From Escherichia coli (GTDB taxonomy: Bacteria > Pseudomonadota > Gammaproteobacteria > Enterobacterales > Enterobacteriaceae), in NCBI RefSeq assembly GCF_041886205.1, contig NZ_CP169029.1: DNA of 64,000 bases, one strand, 5' to 3'. This document shows positions 2,985 through 63,596 of this stretch, in pieces. The first letter of the stretch is position 1, and each line of letters opens with the position of its first letter. The notes beneath the pieces are model-generated. The model saw only the letters and a list, made by a program, of their open reading frames with translations, ran no database searches and had not been told where the DNA came from. A program made the translations under genes and the position numbers.

Positions 2985-4334
2985 ATGTCTGAAATTGTTG
3001 TCTCCAAATTTGGCGGTACCAGCGTAGCTGATTTTGACGCCATGAACCGCAGCGCTGATATTGTGCTTTCTGATGCCAACGTGCGTTTAGTAGTCCTCTC
3101 GGCTTCTGCTGGTATCACTAATCTGCTGGTCGCTTTAGCGGAAGGGCTGGAACCTGGCGAGCGATTCGAAAAACTCGACGCAATCCGCAATATCCAGTTT
3201 GCCATTCTGGAACGTCTGCGTTACCCGAACGTTATCCGTGAAGAGATTGAACGTCTGCTGGAGAACATTACTGTTCTGGCAGAAGCGGCGGCGCTGGCAA
3301 CGTCTCCGGCGCTGACAGATGAGCTGGTCAGCCACGGCGAGCTGATGTCGACCCTGCTGTTTGTCGAAATCCTGCGCGAACGCGATGTTCAGGCACAGTG
3401 GTTTGATGTACGTAAAGTGATGCGTACCAACGACCGATTTGGTCGTGCAGAGCCAGATGTAGCCGCGCTGGCGGAACTGGCCGCGCTGCAGCTGCTCCCA
3501 CGCCTCAATGAAGGCTTAGTGATCACCCAGGGATTTATCGGTAGCGAAAATAAAGGTCGTACAACGACGCTTGGCCGTGGAGGCAGCGATTATACGGCAG
3601 CCTTGCTGGCGGAGGCTTTACACGCATCTCGTGTTGATATCTGGACCGACGTCCCGGGCATCTACACCACCGATCCACGCGTGGTTTCCGCAGCAAAACG
3701 CATTGATGAAATCGCGTTTGCCGAAGCGGCAGAGATGGCAACTTTTGGTGCAAAAGTACTGCATCCGGCAACGTTGCTACCCGCAGTACGCAGCGATATC
3801 CCGGTCTTTGTCGGCTCCAGCAAAGACCCACGCGCAGGTGGTACGCTGGTGTGCAATAAAACTGAAAATCCGCCGCTGTTCCGCGCGCTGGCGCTTCGTC
3901 GCAATCAGACTCTGCTCACTTTGCACAGCCTGAATATGCTGCATTCTCGCGGCTTCCTCGCGGAAGTTTTCGGCATCCTCGCGCGGCATAACATTTCGGT
4001 AGACTTAATCACCACGTCAGAAGTGAGCGTGGCATTAACCCTTGATACCACCGGTTCAACCTCCACTGGCGATACGTTGCTGACGCAATCTCTGCTGATG
4101 GAGCTTTCCGCACTGTGCCGGGTGGAGGTGGAAGAAGGTCTGGCGCTGGTCGCGTTGATTGGCAATGACCTGTCAAAAGCCTGCGGCGTTGGCAAAGAGG
4201 TATTCGGCGTACTGGAACCGTTCAACATTCGCATGATTTGTTATGGCGCATCCAGCCATAACCTGTGCTTCCTGGTGCCCGGCGAAGATGCCGAGCAGGT
4301 GGTGCAGAAGCTGCATTTTAATTTGTTTGAGTAA
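2985..4334 (+). CDS. lysC: Lysine-sensitive aspartokinase III
   Basis: 449-aa ORF MSEIVVSKFGGTSVADFDAMNRSADIVLSD..., ATG at 2985. Confidence 0.97.
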   Translation: MSEIVVSKFGGTSVADFDAMNRSADIVLSDANVRLVVLSASAGITNLLVALAEGLEPGERFEKLDAIRNIQFAILERLRYPNVIREEIERLLENITVLAEAAALATSPALTDELVSHGELMSTLLFVEILRERDVQAQWFDVRKVMRTNDRFGRAEPDVAALAELAALQLLPRLNEGLVITQGFIGSENKGRTTTLGRGGSDYTAALLAEALHASRVDIWTDVPGIYTTDPRVVSAAKRIDEIAFAEAAEMATFGAKVLHPATLLPAVRSDIPVFVGSSKDPRAGGTLVCNKTENPPLFRALALRRNQTLLTLHSLNMLHSRGFLAEVFGILARHNISVDLITTSEVSVALTLDTTGSTSTGDTLLTQSLLMELSALCRVEVEEGLALVALIGNDLSKACGVGKEVFGVLEPFNIRMICYGASSHNLCFLVPGEDAEQVVQKLHFNLFE

Positions 4335-4478
4335 TATTTCCCTACTGGCGTATAACGCTCACCAATTGTTATACGCCATCCTCACTGAAAATATAGATTA
4401 AATAATATCTGAAAAATAAAATCACTCCTGTAGAACAGTATTATAATCACCGAAAAATATTATTTAACAGGAGTGTTA

Positions 4479-5405
4479 ATGGCTACTTTAATGGAAAAAG
4501 ATGCACTTTTAAATGGCACCAGTCAGTGCATCGCGTTTTTATCAAATATCGTTGATAATTGCTCAGTTTCGTCACGTCAGGATTCAGGCGATGATCTCAC
4601 ACGATTAGTCAGCTATCGCGATTATCTTTACTCTACCCCCGCTGAACTTGTTGATTTTACACAGGGAAAGAGTCACCTTCAGCAGATTAGAACTCAATAT
4701 CAGCATGAATTCAACAATACTACGCATTCAGAAAATAAAGCATCTTTTGATTCTATTTGGCAGCGTCTGACAAATCATGAAGTCACACCGCAACAGCATC
4801 CCATTGGTTTTGTTTTAGGTGGGCAACCCGGAGCAGGTAAATCATCTCTGATTGAATTAGCCAAAAGAGAGACAAAAGATAATATAATGATTATTAACGG
4901 TGATGATTTTCGATTTCTACACCCTGATTTTAATTATATCTACCAAAATTATGGGGATGATTTTGTTACCCATACAGCGAAATTTTCCGGCGAAACGGTC
5001 GAACGTGCAATTGAGAGAGCGATAGTCAGTAAACTCAACATTGTTGTCGAAGGAACATTTCGTAATGCCGCTACGCCGTTACAAACATTAAAAAAACTCA
5101 AAGATGCAGGCTACCAAACAGAAGTCATGATAAAAACAACCTCAGCGGCATTAAGCTGGGAAAGCACCAATGAACGGTATAATAAGGACAAAGAGGCGGG
5201 AAATATTGCCCGAAAAGTGGATAAAAACCACCATGATATCGTCACCGGTTTGCTGGCAGAAAATGCCCGCAAGGTGTTTGCTTCGAACCTGTCAGATAAG
5301 TTTGCGGTGTATTCGCGTGAGAAGATGATATTTAGTTCACAAGCGGCAACGAATGACGATATTGCAACGCTTATACAGAATGAAATCAGCGGGAATACAC
5401 AATAA
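4479..5405 (+). CDS. Zeta-toxin-family P-loop kinase with ~100-aa N-terminal extension (EzeT-like single-chain toxin-antitoxin candidate)
   Basis: ATG at 4479 preceded by AGGAG (4468-4472); the ORF track starts 2 codons earlier at a GTG (4473). Walker A GGQPGAGKS at 4818-4844 and GDDFR at 4899-4913, as in zeta/PezT UNAG kinases; gene is visibly AT-rich compared with its neighbours. Confidence 0.8.
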   Translation: MATLMEKDALLNGTSQCIAFLSNIVDNCSVSSRQDSGDDLTRLVSYRDYLYSTPAELVDFTQGKSHLQQIRTQYQHEFNNTTHSENKASFDSIWQRLTNHEVTPQQHPIGFVLGGQPGAGKSSLIELAKRETKDNIMIINGDDFRFLHPDFNYIYQNYGDDFVTHTAKFSGETVERAIERAIVSKLNIVVEGTFRNAATPLQTLKKLKDAGYQTEVMIKTTSAALSWESTNERYNKDKEAGNIARKVDKNHHDIVTGLLAENARKVFASNLSDKFAVYSREKMIFSSQAATNDDIATLIQNEISGNTQ

Positions 5406-5440
5406 TAATAAGAGCTGATGGCGTGAAATAACGCCGGGCA

Positions 5441-6241
5441 TCACGCCCGGCGCATTACCGTCTGGTACATTAAGCTATCCAGTTCCTTAACGTCCCCTTC
5501 TCTGCTATCCGGTAACAGCGGTGGAATTTCCCCACGCGCCAGTTCCGCACGAATAAACGCATGTAACAATGGACGGCGCGGACCATATTCCGCTTCTCCT
5601 GCGCGCTGTTTACGTCCCAGTAATTCGTCTATTTCTGCACGTAACGGCGCATCAAGTTCACTTCCCGCCAGTAGCTCAGCAAAGCGCATTGGCGGCACGC
5701 CTTTTCCCGCTTCGACCCAGCGCACGGCCAGCAGCGGACGCAGCACGTAAAAGTATTTTTTCAGTCGAACTTCATCGCCCTGCAAATATCCGCGGAAGTT
5801 TTTCTGCGCCATCGAATAGTAATGCCAGCGCGCACGCAGCGGAGAAAACCACATTGGGACCATTGCCTTAAGCGCCGTTATCGTTTCTTCATCTTGTTGA
5901 TAGACCACCGGAGAATCCAGCCATTCTATCAGCGTCGGGTTCGCGCCTTTCAATAATCCCAGCGCCTTACGCCACTCCCAACCGGAAACATCTAACTCGT
6001 CGTCGATGGGCAGCTCGATAACATCGCGCGGCGGCTCCACCCGCAGATACCATTCCAGCGGGTGAACATACAAAAACCGTACATCGTAGTCGCTGTCGGG
6101 CGAGGCAAACCCCCAGCCGCGGCTCCCGGATTCACAGGCATACAGCACTTTCACGCCGTAGCGCCGTTCTATTTCTTTTAACTGCTGCGATACCCGTTCG
6201 CGCATCGCAGCACTGACTCCATTTAATGGCATGTTACTCAC
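5441..6241 (-). CDS. Pol-beta-superfamily nucleotidyltransferase-fold protein of unknown specificity
   Basis: 266-aa ORF from a GTG at 6241 that overlaps the upstream SPFH stop; alternative in-frame ATG at 6232. Contains GS-x10-DYDV (coding 6083-6127), the classic hG[GS]...DhDh NTase signature, plus downstream acidic residues (IELPIDDELD). Confidence 0.75.
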   Translation of the reverse strand: MSNMPLNGVSAAMRERVSQQLKEIERRYGVKVLYACESGSRGWGFASPDSDYDVRFLYVHPLEWYLRVEPPRDVIELPIDDELDVSGWEWRKALGLLKGANPTLIEWLDSPVVYQQDEETITALKAMVPMWFSPLRARWHYYSMAQKNFRGYLQGDEVRLKKYFYVLRPLLAVRWVEAGKGVPPMRFAELLAGSELDAPLRAEIDELLGRKQRAGEAEYGPRRPLLHAFIRAELARGEIPPLLPDSREGDVKELDSLMYQTVMRRA

Positions 6242-7365
6242 CCTTTGATATTAACCAACCCATGCAGAACCTGATCCAGACCGCCAAATACAGAGATGTT
6301 ATCGATCCGCTCAGCCACTCTCTCCAGCGTTTCTAGCTCTTTTAAACGCAACGCTACCGGATTGTTCTCCATGACTTTGGCGGTGTTCAGTAACGAGCGC
6401 GTCGCTGCCGTTTCTTCACGTCGGCGAATCACATTCGCCTGCGCAGATTTCTCCGCCTCAACCAGCTGCGCAAGGATATTTTTCATATCGCCAGGCAGGA
6501 CGATATCTTTCACCCCTAATGAAGCAATCTCCATACCAAATGGCAACATGCGCGATTTCACCTGTTCGCTGACAACGTCATCAATGACCTGTTTATCTTC
6601 CAGCAGTTCATCCAGCGTACGAGTACCTACCGCTTCACGCAGGGCAAATTGCAATTCCCGATACAAATGATCAATCGGCTTCGTTAACTGACTAAATGCT
6701 AATAACACGTCGCTGTAGCGCCAGTTAGCCGCGAGGTTAATCCGCAGATTGACCTTATCTTTCGTTAAGATTTCTTGCCCGCTGACTTCCAGTACCTGCA
6801 AGCGGGTGTCAACCACTTCAGTTTCAACCAGATGGTTAATTTTCCAGTACGCGGTAAGCCCCGGCGGTAACAGCGCCTGCGTTTCACCATCGATTTTCAG
6901 CACGCCTACATGCCAGGCCGGAACCTGCACCGTCAGTATCGCATCGCGGCCTTTAACAACTCCTTTGCGCCGTGGCTGTAATACCGCATTCATCACCTCC
7001 GTTTGTACCGGGACTTGCTGCGTATTCATCCGCACCAGCGTCAAATCATCCTCTACACGCCAGTACAAACGACGCGTTGATGGCAGCAGGATCTCCAGCA
7101 AAATACCGTCCATATACAACGCCCCGGCTTCAGTCTCCGACAAGTCTGCCACCAGGCAATATTTCTCCACCCAATCAGGCTGAAAGCGGCGCAAATAGTC
7201 CGCCAGCACGTCGGGAACTTCGCTACCATCCAGCGTAATCAGCAACACTTCCGGGGTATTAAACCAGGGTAAAAAATGCTCGCCTGCATGTAGCACTTTG
7301 TAGTAATCGCCGTTTCTGGAGAGTAATGCCAGCTGATCTTTTCTTACGCTTATTTTTTTAATCAT
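6238..7365 (-). CDS. SPFH/band-7 (stomatin/prohibitin-like) domain protein with no predicted membrane anchor and a ~135-aa N-terminal domain of unknown function
   Basis: 375-aa ORF, ATG at 7363-7365 with AGGAA 7 nt upstream; SPFH hallmarks (PPGLTAYWK...TKDKVNLRINLAANWRY...GMEIASLGVKDIVLPGDMK) and C-terminal coiled-coil-like AEKSAQANVIRRREE...; no hydrophobic stretch of TM length seen by eye. Confidence 0.8.
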   Translation of the reverse strand: MIKKISVRKDQLALLSRNGDYYKVLHAGEHFLPWFNTPEVLLITLDGSEVPDVLADYLRRFQPDWVEKYCLVADLSETEAGALYMDGILLEILLPSTRRLYWRVEDDLTLVRMNTQQVPVQTEVMNAVLQPRRKGVVKGRDAILTVQVPAWHVGVLKIDGETQALLPPGLTAYWKINHLVETEVVDTRLQVLEVSGQEILTKDKVNLRINLAANWRYSDVLLAFSQLTKPIDHLYRELQFALREAVGTRTLDELLEDKQVIDDVVSEQVKSRMLPFGMEIASLGVKDIVLPGDMKNILAQLVEAEKSAQANVIRRREETAATRSLLNTAKVMENNPVALRLKELETLERVAERIDNISVFGGLDQVLHGLVNIKG

Positions 7366-7893
7366 TATCTATTCCTTGCTTAACAGCCGTCGCGGAAGCA
7401 GACACGAAGCGACAGGGGAATTCCCTTTTGCCTGTTACCCGGCGTCTTTATCGGCGACGTTATCGGGGATCGCTGACTGCGCAATCCCTCATTTTTTATT
7501 TAATAAGTTACAACCAGTATTCATTTCAGGAATGAATGTGGGAATCGAACCCATAATTGGCGTCAAAGGCTGACGGAACACGCCCGGAAAACAGCCTGAC
7601 CGTTCCTGGTGTGCCGACGGGGTTTAACCCCCTTTGAAATTCAGTTTCAACGCATAGGAGTTATTGCGAGAATCGTGCCAGAAGTAAAAAAAACACCTAA
7701 TCAAATGAAAAATAAAGATTTAATAAATTATTGTTTTTTATTGGGGGAAAACTTTTCGCTAAATTTGTATCTGTATTTATCATCAATTATCAAGAAAGAT
7801 AAATATTTCAGAAGAGAATAAAGGAATATTATCAGTTCTGCTTGCAAATGAATTCCCGTACACTGAATCCATCGGCTCACTGAGGGCACCATC

Positions 7894-8166
7894 ATGGCAC
7901 TCCCCCGTATTACCCAAAAAGAGATGACTGAACGCGAGCAGCGTGAACTTAAAACACTGCTGGATCGGGCGCGGATTGCGCATGGTCGCGTACTGACCAA
8001 CTCCGAAACCAACAGCATTAAGAAAGAGTACATCGATAAATTAATGGTTGAGCGTGAGGCTGAAGCAAAAAAAGCCCGCCAATTGAAGAAAAAGCAGGCT
8101 TATAAACCGGATCCTGAAGCGTCATTTAGCTGGTCAGCAAATACGTCGACGCGCGGCAGGCGCTGA
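7894..8166 (+). CDS. yjbD: YjbD (DUF3811 family small protein)
   Basis: 90-aa ORF MALPRITQKEMTEREQRELK..., convergent and abutting rluF as in E. coli. Confidence 0.85.
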   Translation: MALPRITQKEMTEREQRELKTLLDRARIAHGRVLTNSETNSIKKEYIDKLMVEREAEAKKARQLKKKQAYKPDPEASFSWSANTSTRGRR

Positions 8167-63154: not shown

Positions 63155-63230
63155 TGGTGCTGATAGGCAGATTCGAACTGCCGACCTCACCCTTACCAAG
63201 GGTGCGCTCTACCAACTGAGCTATATCAGC
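63155..63230 (-). tRNA. thrT: tRNA-Thr (GGU)
   Basis: Reverse complement reads GCTGATATAGCTCAGTTGGTAGAGCGCACCCTTGGTAAGGGTGAGGTCGGCAGTTCGAATCTGCCTATCAGCACCA. Confidence 0.97.
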
Positions 63231-63236
63231 ACATCT

Positions 63237-63311
<75 letters not shown>

Positions 63312-63427
63312 ATCCTGGAACTCGGCTACCTGATTTTCATTCTGCACTGAATATCGAGAGAAGCTCTCTTTATTCGAGCCGGTAAGCGAACTTATCGTCT
63401 CGGGCTACGCCATCGCGTGGCCGAAAT

Positions 63428-63512
<85 letters not shown>

Positions 63513-63520
63513 GGACTTGA

Positions 63521-63596
<76 letters not shown>

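What the first reader, a model, noticed from the sequence alone, without database searches (positions are those of the whole stretch)
5441..7365. Candidate undescribed two-gene module: TM-less SPFH/band-7 protein coupled to a pol-beta-fold nucleotidyltransferase
The two ORFs are co-directional, and the upstream TGA stop (6238-6240) overlaps the downstream GTG (6239-6241), with an alternative ATG only 6 nt further on, so they are almost certainly co-translated. SPFH proteins usually scaffold or regulate membrane proteases and channels and are normally paired with NfeD partners, not with a nucleotidyltransferase. A pol-beta NTase with an intact active-site signature next to a scaffold protein resembles signalling or abortive-infection modules (nucleotide-signal synthases or AMPylating toxins). 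I cannot place this pair in any defence or toxin-antitoxin family I know from memory. Its location in a variable interval beside a zeta toxin gives some circumstantial support for a defence or stress role. Function is inference only.
Basis: partly seen in the sequence, partly recalled or inferred. Interest (0 to 1): 0.8.

Follow-up and report, generated by a model that had tools for sequence, protein, structure and literature searches.

The report
Orphan SPFH–RlaP RNA-repair operon remnant
The two genes are a cut-down E. coli copy of a known, widespread RNA-repair operon (scaffold protein, RNA-end nucleotidyltransferase and a structured leader RNA) that has lost its own ligase and regulator, not an undescribed defence module.

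Summary
In detail: two intact, tightly coupled minus-strand genes lie in a 3.4-kb insert between lysC and yjbD. About 31% of complete E. coli genomes carry it.

The interpretation does not hold. The nucleotidyltransferase is a full-length RlaP (PF10127). Pseudomonas RlaP enzymes add 1-2 nucleotides to damaged RNA 3' ends in vitro.

The membrane-anchor-less SPFH protein belongs to the subfamily encoded in RtcR/sigma-54 operons. Their usual order is rtcR <-> tRNA-like RNA, SPFH, rtcB, rlaP, rtcA. Of 84 homologous loci, 56 had rtcB, 53 rtcR and 31 rlaP. Burroughs & Aravind predicted this Band-7 RNA-repair system in 2016.

A clade of enteric bacteria lost rtcB from the operon. E. coli also lost rtcR. 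It keeps:
- a sigma-54 promoter that closely resembles its own rtcBA promoter;
- an upstream repeat block;
- a roughly 290-nt leader RNA with strong covariation support, which includes a relic tRNA T-arm.

Both genes are under purifying selection (dN/dS 0.03-0.09). The resident rtcR-rtcB locus is present in 5424 of 5426 E. coli genomes.

The module therefore most likely works in trans with RtcR and RtcB. I class it as a new variant of a known kind, of moderate interest.

The parts
7764..7803 (-). Upstream repeat block (TTATC/GATAA-type repeats), a candidate RtcR binding region. It lies 84-123 bp upstream of the sigma-54 element.
   Evidence: In alignment A4 the block is conserved next to the rtcR start in Citrobacter, Pseudocitrobacter, Phytobacter, Enterobacter, Pluralibacter and Superficieibacter. 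Similar repeats occur in the K-12 rtcB promoter. The function is inferred, not shown.
7665..7680 (-). Sigma-54-type promoter, TGGCACgattcTCGCA (-24 GG / -12 GC).
   Evidence: The GG and GC are invariant in 4 divergent E. coli alleles (A1) and in 13 enteric sequences (A3). The same element lies upstream of SPFH in 42 of 84 loci. It closely resembles the K-12 rtcBA promoter, CTGGCACGAcggTTGCAAT.
7535..7651 (-). Leader RNA domain 1. It has a three-way junction: P1 7645-7641 pairs with 7573-7569; P2 is 7635-7617; P3 is 7616-7574. A T-arm-like hairpin follows at 7553-7539 (UGGG-UUCGAUU-CCCA).
   Evidence: RNAalifold on 13 enteric sequences gives 31 pairs, 19 with compensatory changes. In the count of structure pairs, 95.8% of cells are paired against 40-53% in the slid controls, and 0 of 500 shuffles reach that value. 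Covariance model R1 finds the same element upstream of SPFH in 24 non-enteric loci at E <= 0.01. In Pseudomonas the stretch before the T-arm holds a full D arm and anticodon arm, so the E. coli T-arm is a relic of the tRNA-like gene. Neither ARAGORN nor Rfam calls a tRNA here.
7519..7537 (-). Hairpin P5 (AUUCAUU-CCUGA-AAUGAAU), directly after the T-arm.
   Evidence: Compensatory changes appear across enteric sequences read: for example UUUCAU/AUGAAA in Citrobacter, UUCACU/AGUGAA in Phytobacter and UUCGCCU/AGGUGAA in Superficieibacter. This was read by eye and not scored formally.
7387..7460 (-). Leader RNA domain 2: a long-range stem (CGUCGC/GCGACG) that encloses the conserved CAGGCAAAA...UUCCCCUG hairpin.
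   Evidence: RNAalifold gives 20 pairs, 14 with compensatory changes. This domain occupies the position of the second tRNA-like gene seen in Burkholderia and Photobacterium. Homology to that gene is not established.
6238..7365 (-). Soluble SPFH/Band-7 (slipin-like) protein of 375 aa. It has three tandem copies of a ~45-aa beta motif, the third of which begins the stomatin-type SPFH domain, followed by a long C-terminal helix.
5441..6232 (-). RlaP-family Pol-beta nucleotidyltransferase of 263 aa. An alternative GTG start lies at 6241.
   Evidence: PF10127 RlaP matches at E = 4e-95 over the full length. phrog_14344 (nucleotidyltransferase) matches at 1e-123. The catalytic G36-S37 and D46/D48/D50/D81 are conserved. 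The protein is 57-60% identical to the RlaP encoded downstream of rtcB, and in some loci before rtcA, in Pseudomonas. dN/dS is 0.05-0.06.
5424..5452 (-). Terminator-like GC-rich hairpin (CGCCGGGC-gugau-GCCCGGCG, then UUAUUU). It overlaps the RlaP stop codon and is shared with the convergent zeta gene.
   Evidence: The sequence is. cmscan aligned it to the terminator hairpins of unrelated sRNA models. The simple terminator scan did not list it.

Best explanation
This is a reduced RtcR-type RNA-repair operon. Its full form in other proteobacteria reads:

rtcR (divergent) <-> sigma-54 promoter, structured leader with tRNA-like gene(s), SPFH, rtcB, rlaP, rtcA.

The E. coli copy keeps the promoter, most of the leader RNA, the SPFH gene and rlaP. 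It has lost rtcB and rtcR.

**Proposed mechanism**
[quoted passage not shown] This is established for Salmonella and E. coli RtcR in the literature. The resident RtcR, encoded at the rtcBA locus, then drives the orphan sigma-54 promoter through the retained upstream repeats.
2. *Transcript (shown by sequence and covariation; expression not shown).* It carries a ~290-nt structured leader followed by two translationally coupled genes.
3. *RlaP (activity shown only for Pseudomonas orthologues; inferred here).* It adds one or two nucleotides to the 3'-OH of broken RNAs. This replaces bases trimmed off by nucleases before ligation.
4. *SPFH protein (inferred from its stomatin/HflK-like fold and long helix).* It assembles into a soluble ring or cage. 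This structure acts as a scaffold or chaperone for the repair enzymes, the leader-derived RNA, or both.
5. *Ligation (inferred).* RtcB, encoded elsewhere in the genome, supplies it in trans.
For: **RlaP identity**
- The match to PF10127 is full length and the catalytic residues are intact.
- RlaP biochemistry and its place in RtcB operons are described in PMC12776372.

**Conserved gene neighbourhood**
- Of 84 SPFH loci, 53 have a divergent rtcR, 56 have rtcB, 31 have rlaP and 21 have rtcA.
- Phytobacter, Enterobacter, Pluralibacter and Providencia have SPFH-rtcB-rlaP.
- Citrobacter, Superficieibacter, Mangrovibacter, Hafnia and Pseudocitrobacter have rtcR <-> SPFH-rlaP. In the RefSeq-annotated Citrobacter locus the spacing is the same 5 nt as in E. 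coli.

**Promoter and regulator**
- The sigma-54 promoter is conserved and close to that of rtcBA.
- The upstream repeat block is retained.
- The C-terminal part of the RtcR helix-turn-helix region, NDADRLRKYLARFGL, is identical between the module-linked Citrobacter RtcR and K-12 RtcR.
- The rtcR-rtcB locus matches in 5424 of 5426 E. coli genomes, with at least 80% coverage in 4838.

**Leader RNA**
- Covariation supports both structured domains.
- Domain 1 is homologous to elements that precede the tRNA-like genes in other phyla.
- tRNA-like genes lie upstream of SPFH in 31 of 64 scanned loci.

**Selection**
- dN/dS is 0.03-0.09.
- The leader is about 2.6% divergent between alleles whose dS is 0.2-0.4.

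**Literature**
- A Band-7 protein plus a tRNA-like RNA next to RtcB is attributed to Burroughs & Aravind 2016 in the text read.
- PaFlo8 lies in the P. aeruginosa rtc locus.
Against: - No ligase, cyclase or RtcR gene lies in or next to the E. coli module, so cooperation in trans is an assumption.
- I have no expression data for the orphan promoter.
- The upstream repeat similarity rests on an alignment of AT-rich DNA, and the RtcR binding site is not defined in anything I read.
- RtcB needs a 3'-phosphate end, whereas RlaP leaves a 3'-OH. The RlaP authors themselves flag this unresolved incompatibility.
- The leader fails tRNA detection, so the defining RNA partner is degenerate here.
- Deleting the P. 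aeruginosa SPFH orthologue gave no phenotype in the assays that were run.
- SPFH oligomerisation and any RNA or enzyme binding are untested.
- Cyanobacterial homologues of the SPFH protein have no Rtc genes nearby, so the subfamily is not tied exclusively to Rtc.
Confidence: 0.65

Rival explanations
1. The dyad is self-sufficient and does not depend on a ligase. Together with its leader RNA, SPFH-RlaP mends or tags RNA 3' ends on its own. Examples would be restoring trimmed tRNA 3' ends or marking fragments for decay. Losing rtcB from the operon then reflects a genuinely different job, not trans-complementation.
For: - A whole enteric clade keeps rtcR <-> SPFH-rlaP without rtcB.
- Both genes stay under strong purifying selection in E. 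coli.
- RlaP products carry a 3'-OH, which RtcB cannot use directly.
Against: - In most loci rlaP follows rtcB in the same operon.
- The family was defined by its association with ligases.
- E. coli almost always has RtcB elsewhere, so a ligase is available.
Confidence: 0.2
2. The module is a decaying, non-functional relic. After rtcR and rtcB were lost, the promoter can no longer be activated and the genes are on their way to becoming pseudogenes.
For: - The cognate regulator and ligase are missing, and the tRNA-like gene is reduced to a T-arm.
- About 69% of E. coli genomes, K-12 included, lack the module. K-12 keeps only a scar of the upstream block.
Against: - The ORFs are intact in all four alleles examined, with dN/dS of 0.03-0.09.
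- The leader and promoter are far more conserved than synonymous sites.
- At least 80% of the queried 3.6-kb region (window 4335-7900, insert plus flank) is present in 1424 genomes.
Confidence: 0.07
3. The pair is an anti-phage defence or abortive-infection module in which the nucleotidyltransferase makes a nucleotide signal or AMPylates a target, and the SPFH protein is the sensor or scaffold.
For: - The pair sits in a variable hotspot next to a zeta toxin, or in other strains next to a phage-tail cluster.
- RNA repair is itself part of conflicts with phages and toxins.
- RlaP homologues occur in jumbo phages.
Against: - Neither protein matches a PADLOC model.
- The nucleotidyltransferase is an orthologue of enzymes shown to extend RNA 3' ends, not to make cyclic nucleotides.
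- The conserved partners are RNA-repair enzymes and RtcR.
- No effector-like gene is conserved with the pair.
- The zeta gene is not conserved with it either.
Confidence: 0.05

Closest known systems
Band-7/SPFH - tRNA-like RNA - RtcB RNA-repair operons under RtcR/sigma-54 (predicted by Burroughs & Aravind, NAR 2016). An example is P. aeruginosa rtcR-PaFlo8-rtcB-rlaP-rtcA.
   Same: - The SPFH subfamily is orthologous: 53-61% identity to Pseudomonas, Burkholderia and other beta/gamma-proteobacterial copies, and 77-84% to enteric copies.
- The RlaP is orthologous.
- The sigma-54 promoter is the same.
- Leader domain 1 is homologous and includes a T-arm.
   Different: - The operon has no rtcB, no rtcA and no adjacent rtcR.
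- The tRNA-like gene has lost its D arm and anticodon arm, and tRNA finders no longer recognise it.
- The module is an accessory insert present in about 31% of E. coli.
E. coli rtcBA operon with RtcR (sigma-54, CARF-domain activator)
   Same: - The promoter core is nearly identical: CTGGCACGA-N3-T(T/C)GCAAT.
- Upstream TTATC/GATA repeats are similar.
- The pathway is probably the same.
   Different: The rtcBA operon encodes the ligase and cyclase. It has no SPFH protein, no RlaP and only a short leader with no counterpart of this structured RNA.
Salmonella rsr-yrlBA-rtcBA operon (Ro60 with Y-RNA-like tRNA mimics). The operon layout is from my own knowledge, and the parallel is drawn in bioRxiv 10.1101/312249.
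   Same: Both have a protein scaffold plus a tRNA-mimicking non-coding RNA encoded upstream of the repair enzymes, and both are controlled by RtcR.
   Different: - The scaffold there is a TROVE/Ro60 ring, not an SPFH protein.
- The RNA is YrlA. No Rfam family matches the leader here.
Membrane SPFH cages: stomatin, QmcA-YbbJ (NfeD), HflK/C-FtsH, prohibitin
   Different: - There is no membrane hairpin or transmembrane segment.
- There is no NfeD partner.
- Two extra copies of the SPFH N-terminal beta motif are present instead.
- The partners are RNA enzymes, not proteases or channels.
Eukaryotic vault particle (major vault protein, vault RNA, and TEP1 with a TROVE domain). The composition is from my own knowledge.
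   Same: - Both have beta-repeat domains, then an SPFH-like shoulder, then a long helix.
- Foldseek aligns 447-479 columns to the major vault protein.
- Both are associated with a small structured RNA.
   Different: - No evidence for a closed cage exists here.
- I treat this as a lead, not as membership.

Membership tests
RlaP (Pfam PF10127), RNA-ligase-associating Pol-beta nucleotidyltransferase | Full-length match to the family profile | tested here: met
   PF10127 matches at E = 3.8e-95, residues 13-259 against model positions 1-248 of 249.
RlaP (Pfam PF10127), RNA-ligase-associating Pol-beta nucleotidyltransferase | Pol-beta catalytic signature: G-S and three carboxylates | tested here: met
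   G36, S37, D46, D48, D50 and D81 are near-invariant in 31 orthologues. The three strictly conserved Asp residues are described in PMC12776372.
RlaP (Pfam PF10127), RNA-ligase-associating Pol-beta nucleotidyltransferase | Gene lies in an operon with an RNA ligase | tested here: not met
   No ligase lies in the insert 4335-7763. Orthologues that are 48-88% identical do follow rtcB in 24 other loci. In E. coli, RtcB is encoded elsewhere.
RlaP (Pfam PF10127), RNA-ligase-associating Pol-beta nucleotidyltransferase | Adds 1-2 NMP to RNA 3'-OH ends | not testable with these tools
   This was shown only for the P. fluorescens and P. aeruginosa enzymes.
Band-7/SPFH + tRNA-like RNA + RtcB repair operon (RtcR regulon) | SPFH protein of the RtcB-linked subfamily | tested here: met
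   Full-length homologues (42-84% identity) lie directly upstream of rtcB or in the rtc locus in 56 of 84 loci.
Band-7/SPFH + tRNA-like RNA + RtcB repair operon (RtcR regulon) | RtcB ligase encoded in the operon | tested here: not met
   SPFH is followed directly by rlaP. Six other enteric loci show the same loss.
Band-7/SPFH + tRNA-like RNA + RtcB repair operon (RtcR regulon) | Divergent rtcR gene next to the operon | tested here: not met
   yjbD starts 213 bp upstream of the promoter and no rtcR is present. rtcR is present in Citrobacter at the same chromosomal site.
Band-7/SPFH + tRNA-like RNA + RtcB repair operon (RtcR regulon) | Sigma-54 promoter upstream of the SPFH gene | tested here: met
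   TGGCACgattcTCGCA lies at 7680-7665. It is conserved and resembles the rtcBA promoter. This is sequence evidence only.
Band-7/SPFH + tRNA-like RNA + RtcB repair operon (RtcR regulon) | tRNA-like gene between the promoter and SPFH | tested here: inconclusive
   Neither ARAGORN nor Rfam finds a tRNA. A T-arm (7553-7539) aligns by covariance model to the T-arm of the tRNA-like gene of Pseudomonas. It sits inside a covariation-supported structured RNA.
SPFH-NfeD membrane scaffold (stomatin/QmcA type) | Membrane anchor and an adjacent NfeD gene | tested here: not met
   [not shown]
Known or candidate anti-phage defence systems (PADLOC-DB 2.0) | Match to any defence-system protein model | tested here: not met
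   Both proteins match 0 families at E <= 0.01.
Zeta/epsilon toxin-antitoxin (neighbouring gene only) | Conserved linkage of the zeta gene with the SPFH-RlaP pair | tested here: not met
   No zeta homologue appears in any of 84 loci from other species. In E. coli PK12 and 806883 a tail-gene cluster takes its place.

The most novel reading that the evidence does not exclude
The anchor-less SPFH protein forms a soluble, vault-like or stomatin-like cage. This cage binds the processed, T-loop-bearing leader RNA and holds damaged tRNAs together with RlaP (and RtcB) for repair. It would be a bacterial ribonucleoprotein counterpart of the Ro/Y-RNA and vault particles. In E. coli it would be wired in trans to the resident RtcR. 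The widely conserved 5' leader domain (P1-P3), which no Rfam family matches, would be a new RNA class that nucleates this particle.
Probability: 0.2. Interest if true: 0.8.

Novelty: new variant of a known kind. Interest (0 to 1): 0.4.

Why it matters
**An open question.** RtcB/RtcR RNA repair is well studied in E. coli K-12, but K-12 lacks this module. The Band-7 scaffold and its tRNA-like RNA were predicted in 2016 and, in the literature I could search, have no demonstrated function. Deleting the P. aeruginosa orthologue gave no phenotype.

**A tractable system.** About a third of natural E. coli carry a minimal, ligase-less version with the promoter and leader intact. The questions it lets one test directly in E. 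coli are:
- what the SPFH scaffold and the leader RNA do;
- whether RlaP helps cells survive nucleases that trim RNA ends;
- whether RtcR controls genes beyond rtcBA.

**Strain differences.** The module may explain strain-to-strain differences in tolerance to colicins, anticodon nucleases or ribosome-targeting drugs.

**Annotation.** These genes are now labelled 'slipin family protein' and 'nucleotidyltransferase domain-containing protein'. They can be given informative names, and a conserved non-coding RNA can be added.

Tried and rejected
- **NCBIfam** gave nothing for the nucleotidyltransferase and only sub-threshold HflK/C hits for SPFH. **PADLOC** gave nothing.
- **The search for homologous proteins** was saturated by near-identical E. 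coli sequences and added no diversity. The 50%-representative search was used instead.
- **Phage collection.** Only short RlaP-gene matches in jumbo phages appeared, and no phage carries the pair. PHROG hits to the nucleotidyltransferase and the zeta gene show only that such sequences occur in phage or prophage data.
- **tRNA or known RNA in the leader.** ARAGORN at default settings and Rfam at E <= 10 found nothing. A single-sequence fold had a z-score of -0.24. Relaxed ARAGORN produced an 'intron-containing tRNA' with an acceptor stem ACUGAAU/AUUCAUU. I rejected that as the main fold for two reasons: the 3' strand pairs with compensatory changes to a downstream strand (hairpin P5), and the 5' strand forms P1 with UCAGC.
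- **Zeta toxin as a third component** (for example an RNA kinase). I rejected this for lack of conserved linkage.
- **Primary source not readable.** The Burroughs & Aravind 2016 paper (PMC5062991) is not held in the library. Its content is cited second-hand or from my memory, and is marked as such.
Full report
**1. What is in the sequence**

The window is E. coli chromosome. lysC lies at 2985-4334 on the plus strand, and yjbD, rluF, pepE and yjbB follow from 7894.

Between lysC and yjbD lie three features:
- a zeta-toxin-family gene on the plus strand (4473-5405; Pfam Zeta_toxin, E = 2e-40);
- two minus-strand genes, 6238-7365 (375 aa) and 5441-6241;
- 528 bp without an ORF of note (7366-7893).

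The upstream TGA and a GTG overlap as GTGA. An in-frame ATG lies three codons further on, at 6232-6230. RefSeq uses that ATG in every annotated E. coli copy I looked at: a 792-nt CDS that starts 5 nt after the stop. A Shine-Dalgarno-like AAGGGTGAG precedes it. Either start gives translational coupling.

Comparison with K-12 shows that homology stops at 4334 and resumes at 7764. The region 4335-7763 is therefore an insert of 3429 bp. The queried region (window 4335-7900, insert plus flank) matches 1658 of 5426 complete E. coli genomes, always on the chromosome. In 1424 of them the match covers at least 80% of that query.

**2. The two proteins**

*The nucleotidyltransferase.*
- It matches Pfam RlaP (PF10127) end to end, E = 4e-95.
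- The Pol-beta signature G36-S37, D46, D48, D50 and D81 (263-aa numbering) is near-invariant in 31 orthologues.
- RlaP was named for its association with RNA ligases.
- Two Pseudomonas enzymes add one or two NMPs to RNA 3'-OH ends, with a preference for damaged RNAs. Their genes lie between rtcB and rtcA (PMC12776372).

*The SPFH protein.*
- It has a Band_7 domain at residues 147-318.
- By profile it is closest to stomatin, over residues 144-352 at E = 1e-33.
- It has no hydrophobic segment.
- An AlphaFold2 model (pLDDT 88.8) shows three beta-meander units, the SPFH alpha/beta core and a long helix.
- The three beta units are homologous repeats of the motif that begins any SPFH domain (hhalign probability 98.5-99%).

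**3. Genomic context elsewhere**

*First look at other genera.* A tblastn search of the plasmid collection, which holds some mislabelled chromosomes, gave four informative loci:
- Citrobacter freundii has the pair at the same lysC/yjbD site, with a divergent gene annotated 'RNA repair transcriptional activator RtcR'.
- Burkholderia has rtcR <-> SPFH-rtcB-rlaP.
- Photobacterium has rtcR <-> SPFH-rtcB.
- The Firmicute Subdoligranulum has SPFH-rtcB-rlaP.

*Wider scan.* I scanned one genome per species with an alignment of 45 diverse full-length homologues. This returned 80 more loci. The table below gives counts over all 84 loci and over the 63 with full flanks.

| Gene near SPFH | All 84 loci | 63 loci with full flanks |
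|---|---|---|
| rtcR (divergent) | 53 | 46 |
| rtcB | 56 | 48 |
| rlaP | 31 | 29 |
| rtcA | 21 | 17 |

*Pattern in proteobacteria.* The canonical order is rtcR <-> SPFH-rtcB-(rlaP)-(rtcA).

*Pattern within Enterobacterales.*
- Phytobacter, Enterobacter, Pluralibacter, Providencia and Xenorhabdus keep SPFH-rtcB-rlaP.
- Citrobacter (two species), Pseudocitrobacter, Superficieibacter, Mangrovibacter and Hafnia have SPFH followed directly by rlaP, and they still have rtcR.
- E. coli is one step further reduced: it has lost rtcR too.

*Zeta gene.* It is absent from all 84 loci. In E. coli PK12 a 16-kb Mu-like tail and lysis gene cluster occupies its place.

*Literature.* Text read attributes to Burroughs & Aravind (2016) the finding that in some bacteria RtcB is encoded next to a Band-7 protein and a predicted 'band-7-associated tRNA'. 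A 2026 paper notes that the P. aeruginosa SPFH protein PaFlo8 lies within the rtc locus, and its deletion showed no phenotype.

**4.

*Promoter.*
- On the minus strand, TGGCACgattcTCGCA (7680-7665) is a sigma-54 -24/-12 element.
- It is invariant at GG and GC among divergent E. coli alleles and 13 enteric sequences.
- The same element lies upstream of SPFH in 42 of 84 loci.
- It is close to the K-12 rtcBA promoter, CTGGCACGAcggTTGCAAT.

*Upstream repeat block.*
- A block of TTATC/GATAA repeats (7803-7764) lies 84-123 bp upstream.
- The block is conserved beside the rtcR start codon in the enteric relatives, and the K-12 rtcB promoter region has similar repeats.
- It lies in DNA that K-12 also retains. 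K-12 therefore looks like a deletion derivative that kept a scar.

*Leader conservation.* From about 7651 to the start codon the leader is nearly invariant among E. coli alleles. It is about 2.6% divergent where dS of the adjacent genes is 0.2-0.4.

*Leader structure, domain 1.*
- On 13 enteric sequences RNAalifold predicts a three-way junction (P1-P3) plus a T-arm-like hairpin, UGGG-UUCGAUU-CCCA. It predicts 31 pairs, 19 with compensatory changes.
- In the pair count, 95.8% of cells are paired against 40-53% when partners are slid. None of 500 shuffles reaches the observed values on four of five measures.

*Leader structure, domain 2.* A second domain (7460-7387) has 20 predicted pairs, 14 of them compensatory.

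*Relation to the tRNA-like genes of relatives.*
- A covariance model built only from the enteric sequences finds the same element in 24 beta/gamma-proteobacterial and other loci at E <= 0.01. All hits lie on the SPFH strand, upstream of SPFH.
- In those loci ARAGORN finds tRNA-like genes 250-500 nt upstream of SPFH, often with aberrant anticodon loops. This holds for 31 of 64 scanned loci and for none of the 11 Enterobacterales loci.
- The model's alignment to Pseudomonas shows a complete D arm and anticodon arm inserted between P1 and the T-arm.
- The E. coli T-arm is therefore the relic of that tRNA-like gene, while the 5' domain P1-P3 is broadly conserved.
- No Rfam family matches the leader.

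**5. Is the E. coli remnant alive?**

- Both ORFs are intact in four alleles, with dN/dS of 0.03-0.09. The promoter and leader are conserved.
- The rtcR-rtcB locus is found in 5424 of 5426 E. coli genomes, with at least 80% coverage in 4838.
- The module-linked RtcR of Citrobacter is 61% identical to K-12 RtcR. The C-terminal part of the helix-turn-helix region, NDADRLRKYLARFGL, is identical.

From this I infer, but have not shown, that the resident RtcR activates the orphan promoter and that RtcB supplies ligation in trans.

**6. Mechanism, with what is shown and what is inferred**

*Shown here:*
- gene identities;
- the conserved operon context;
- the promoter sequence;
- the structured RNA;
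- purifying selection.

*Taken from the literature:*
- RlaP activity, measured on Pseudomonas enzymes;
- control of RtcR by damaged tRNA fragments, as reported in the papers listed.

*Inferred:*
- trans-activation by RtcR;
- cooperation with RtcB;
- SPFH oligomerisation into a soluble ring or cage that scaffolds the enzymes or RNA;
- processing of the leader into a stable RNA.

*An open problem* is that RlaP leaves a 3'-OH end, whereas RtcB needs a 3'-phosphate.

**7. Rivals**

- An autonomous, ligase-independent role for the dyad is plausible (0.2), because a whole enteric clade dropped rtcB from the operon.
- A dead relic is unlikely (0.07) given the selection on the genes and leader.
- The defence or signalling reading is unlikely (0.05). 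PADLOC gives no hits, the nucleotidyltransferase is an RNA-end transferase family, and the conserved partners are repair enzymes.

**8. Verdict**

The locus is a new, minimal variant of a known predicted system. I found three features in no paper I could read:
- the ligase-less and regulator-less configuration in about 31% of E. coli;
- the apparent wiring to the resident RtcR;
- the covariation-supported 5' leader domain.

Interest is moderate (0.4). The main value is as a tractable entry point to the still unknown role of the Band-7 scaffold and its RNA.

Noticed in passing
window 4473-5405 (+): A zeta-toxin-family P-loop kinase gene (Pfam Zeta_toxin, E = 2e-40) has a ~100-aa N-terminal extension and no obvious epsilon-type antitoxin ORF in the 138 bp upstream. 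It is frameshifted in E. coli O145:H28 RM12581. It matches phrog_25145 at 7e-186. It is not conserved with the SPFH-RlaP pair outside E. coli.
   Followed up: partly
L003 26211-41896 (E. coli PK12, between lysC and the RlaP gene): In some E. coli the zeta gene is replaced by a ~16-kb Mu-like cluster. It encodes a Mor activator, holin, transglycosylase, tail sheath, tube, tape measure, baseplate and fibre, but no head or integrase genes are annotated. This looks like a contractile tailocin or a prophage remnant. Strain GN25 (L002) has a version truncated by IS1 and no SPFH-RlaP pair.
   Followed up: partly
window 7764-7803 and K-12 locus L091: K-12 lacks the module but retains DNA homologous to the upstream TTATC/GATAA repeat block (92.8% identity from window 7764 onward). 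The K-12 state therefore looks like a deletion that left a regulatory scar in front of yjbD.
   Followed up: partly
L044 3538-5582; L071 215-2455; L055 4105-5756; L026 4497-5761; L043 4581-5735: In several Burkholderiales and gammaproteobacterial loci the SPFH gene is preceded by a whole array of 4-11 tRNA genes with ordinary-looking anticodons, not by one or two tRNA-like genes. One is called tRNA-Pyl(cta). The array could be a spare tRNA set linked to the repair scaffold.
   Followed up: no
L030-L032, L034, L047, L053, L041: The SPFH homologues in Gilliamella, Snodgrassella and Xenorhabdus are ~520 aa, with an additional N-terminal repeat unit. Gilliamella sp. wkB308 shows three identical copies of the whole rtcR-SPFH-rtcB locus on three contigs.
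   Followed up: no
L070, L073-L075, L077, L079-L083, L087, L090: Cyanobacterial full-length homologues of the SPFH protein (43-46% identity) have no rtcR, rtcB, rlaP or rtcA within the flanks by tblastn with E. coli queries. Their context, and whether another ligase type is present, was not examined.
   Followed up: no
window 7635-7617 and homologous P2 hairpins in L017, L018, L020: The loop of hairpin P2 in the conserved 5' leader domain reads UUCA-/UUAA-type in many species, like a second T-loop. The 5' domain may itself derive from a tRNA-like unit.
   Followed up: no
L007 3254-3945 (Citrobacter freundii): At the same lysC/yjbD hotspot Citrobacter carries a RelE/ParE-XRE toxin-antitoxin pair between yjbD and rtcR. 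The record is labelled a 425-kb plasmid, yet it holds core chromosomal genes (lysC, pgi, rluF).
   Followed up: no
window 63155-63596 (-): An ordinary tRNA cluster is present: Thr(ggt), Gly(tcc), Tyr(gta) and Thr(tgt). It explains the weak hit of the leader RNA model at 63245-63332, which comes from T-arm similarity only.
   Followed up: yes
NZ_CP090448.1 (E. coli PT62, hit H1): The only 100%-identical genome match to this region carries an IS1 insertion of about 0.78 kb inside the region. The window lacks that insertion.
   Followed up: no
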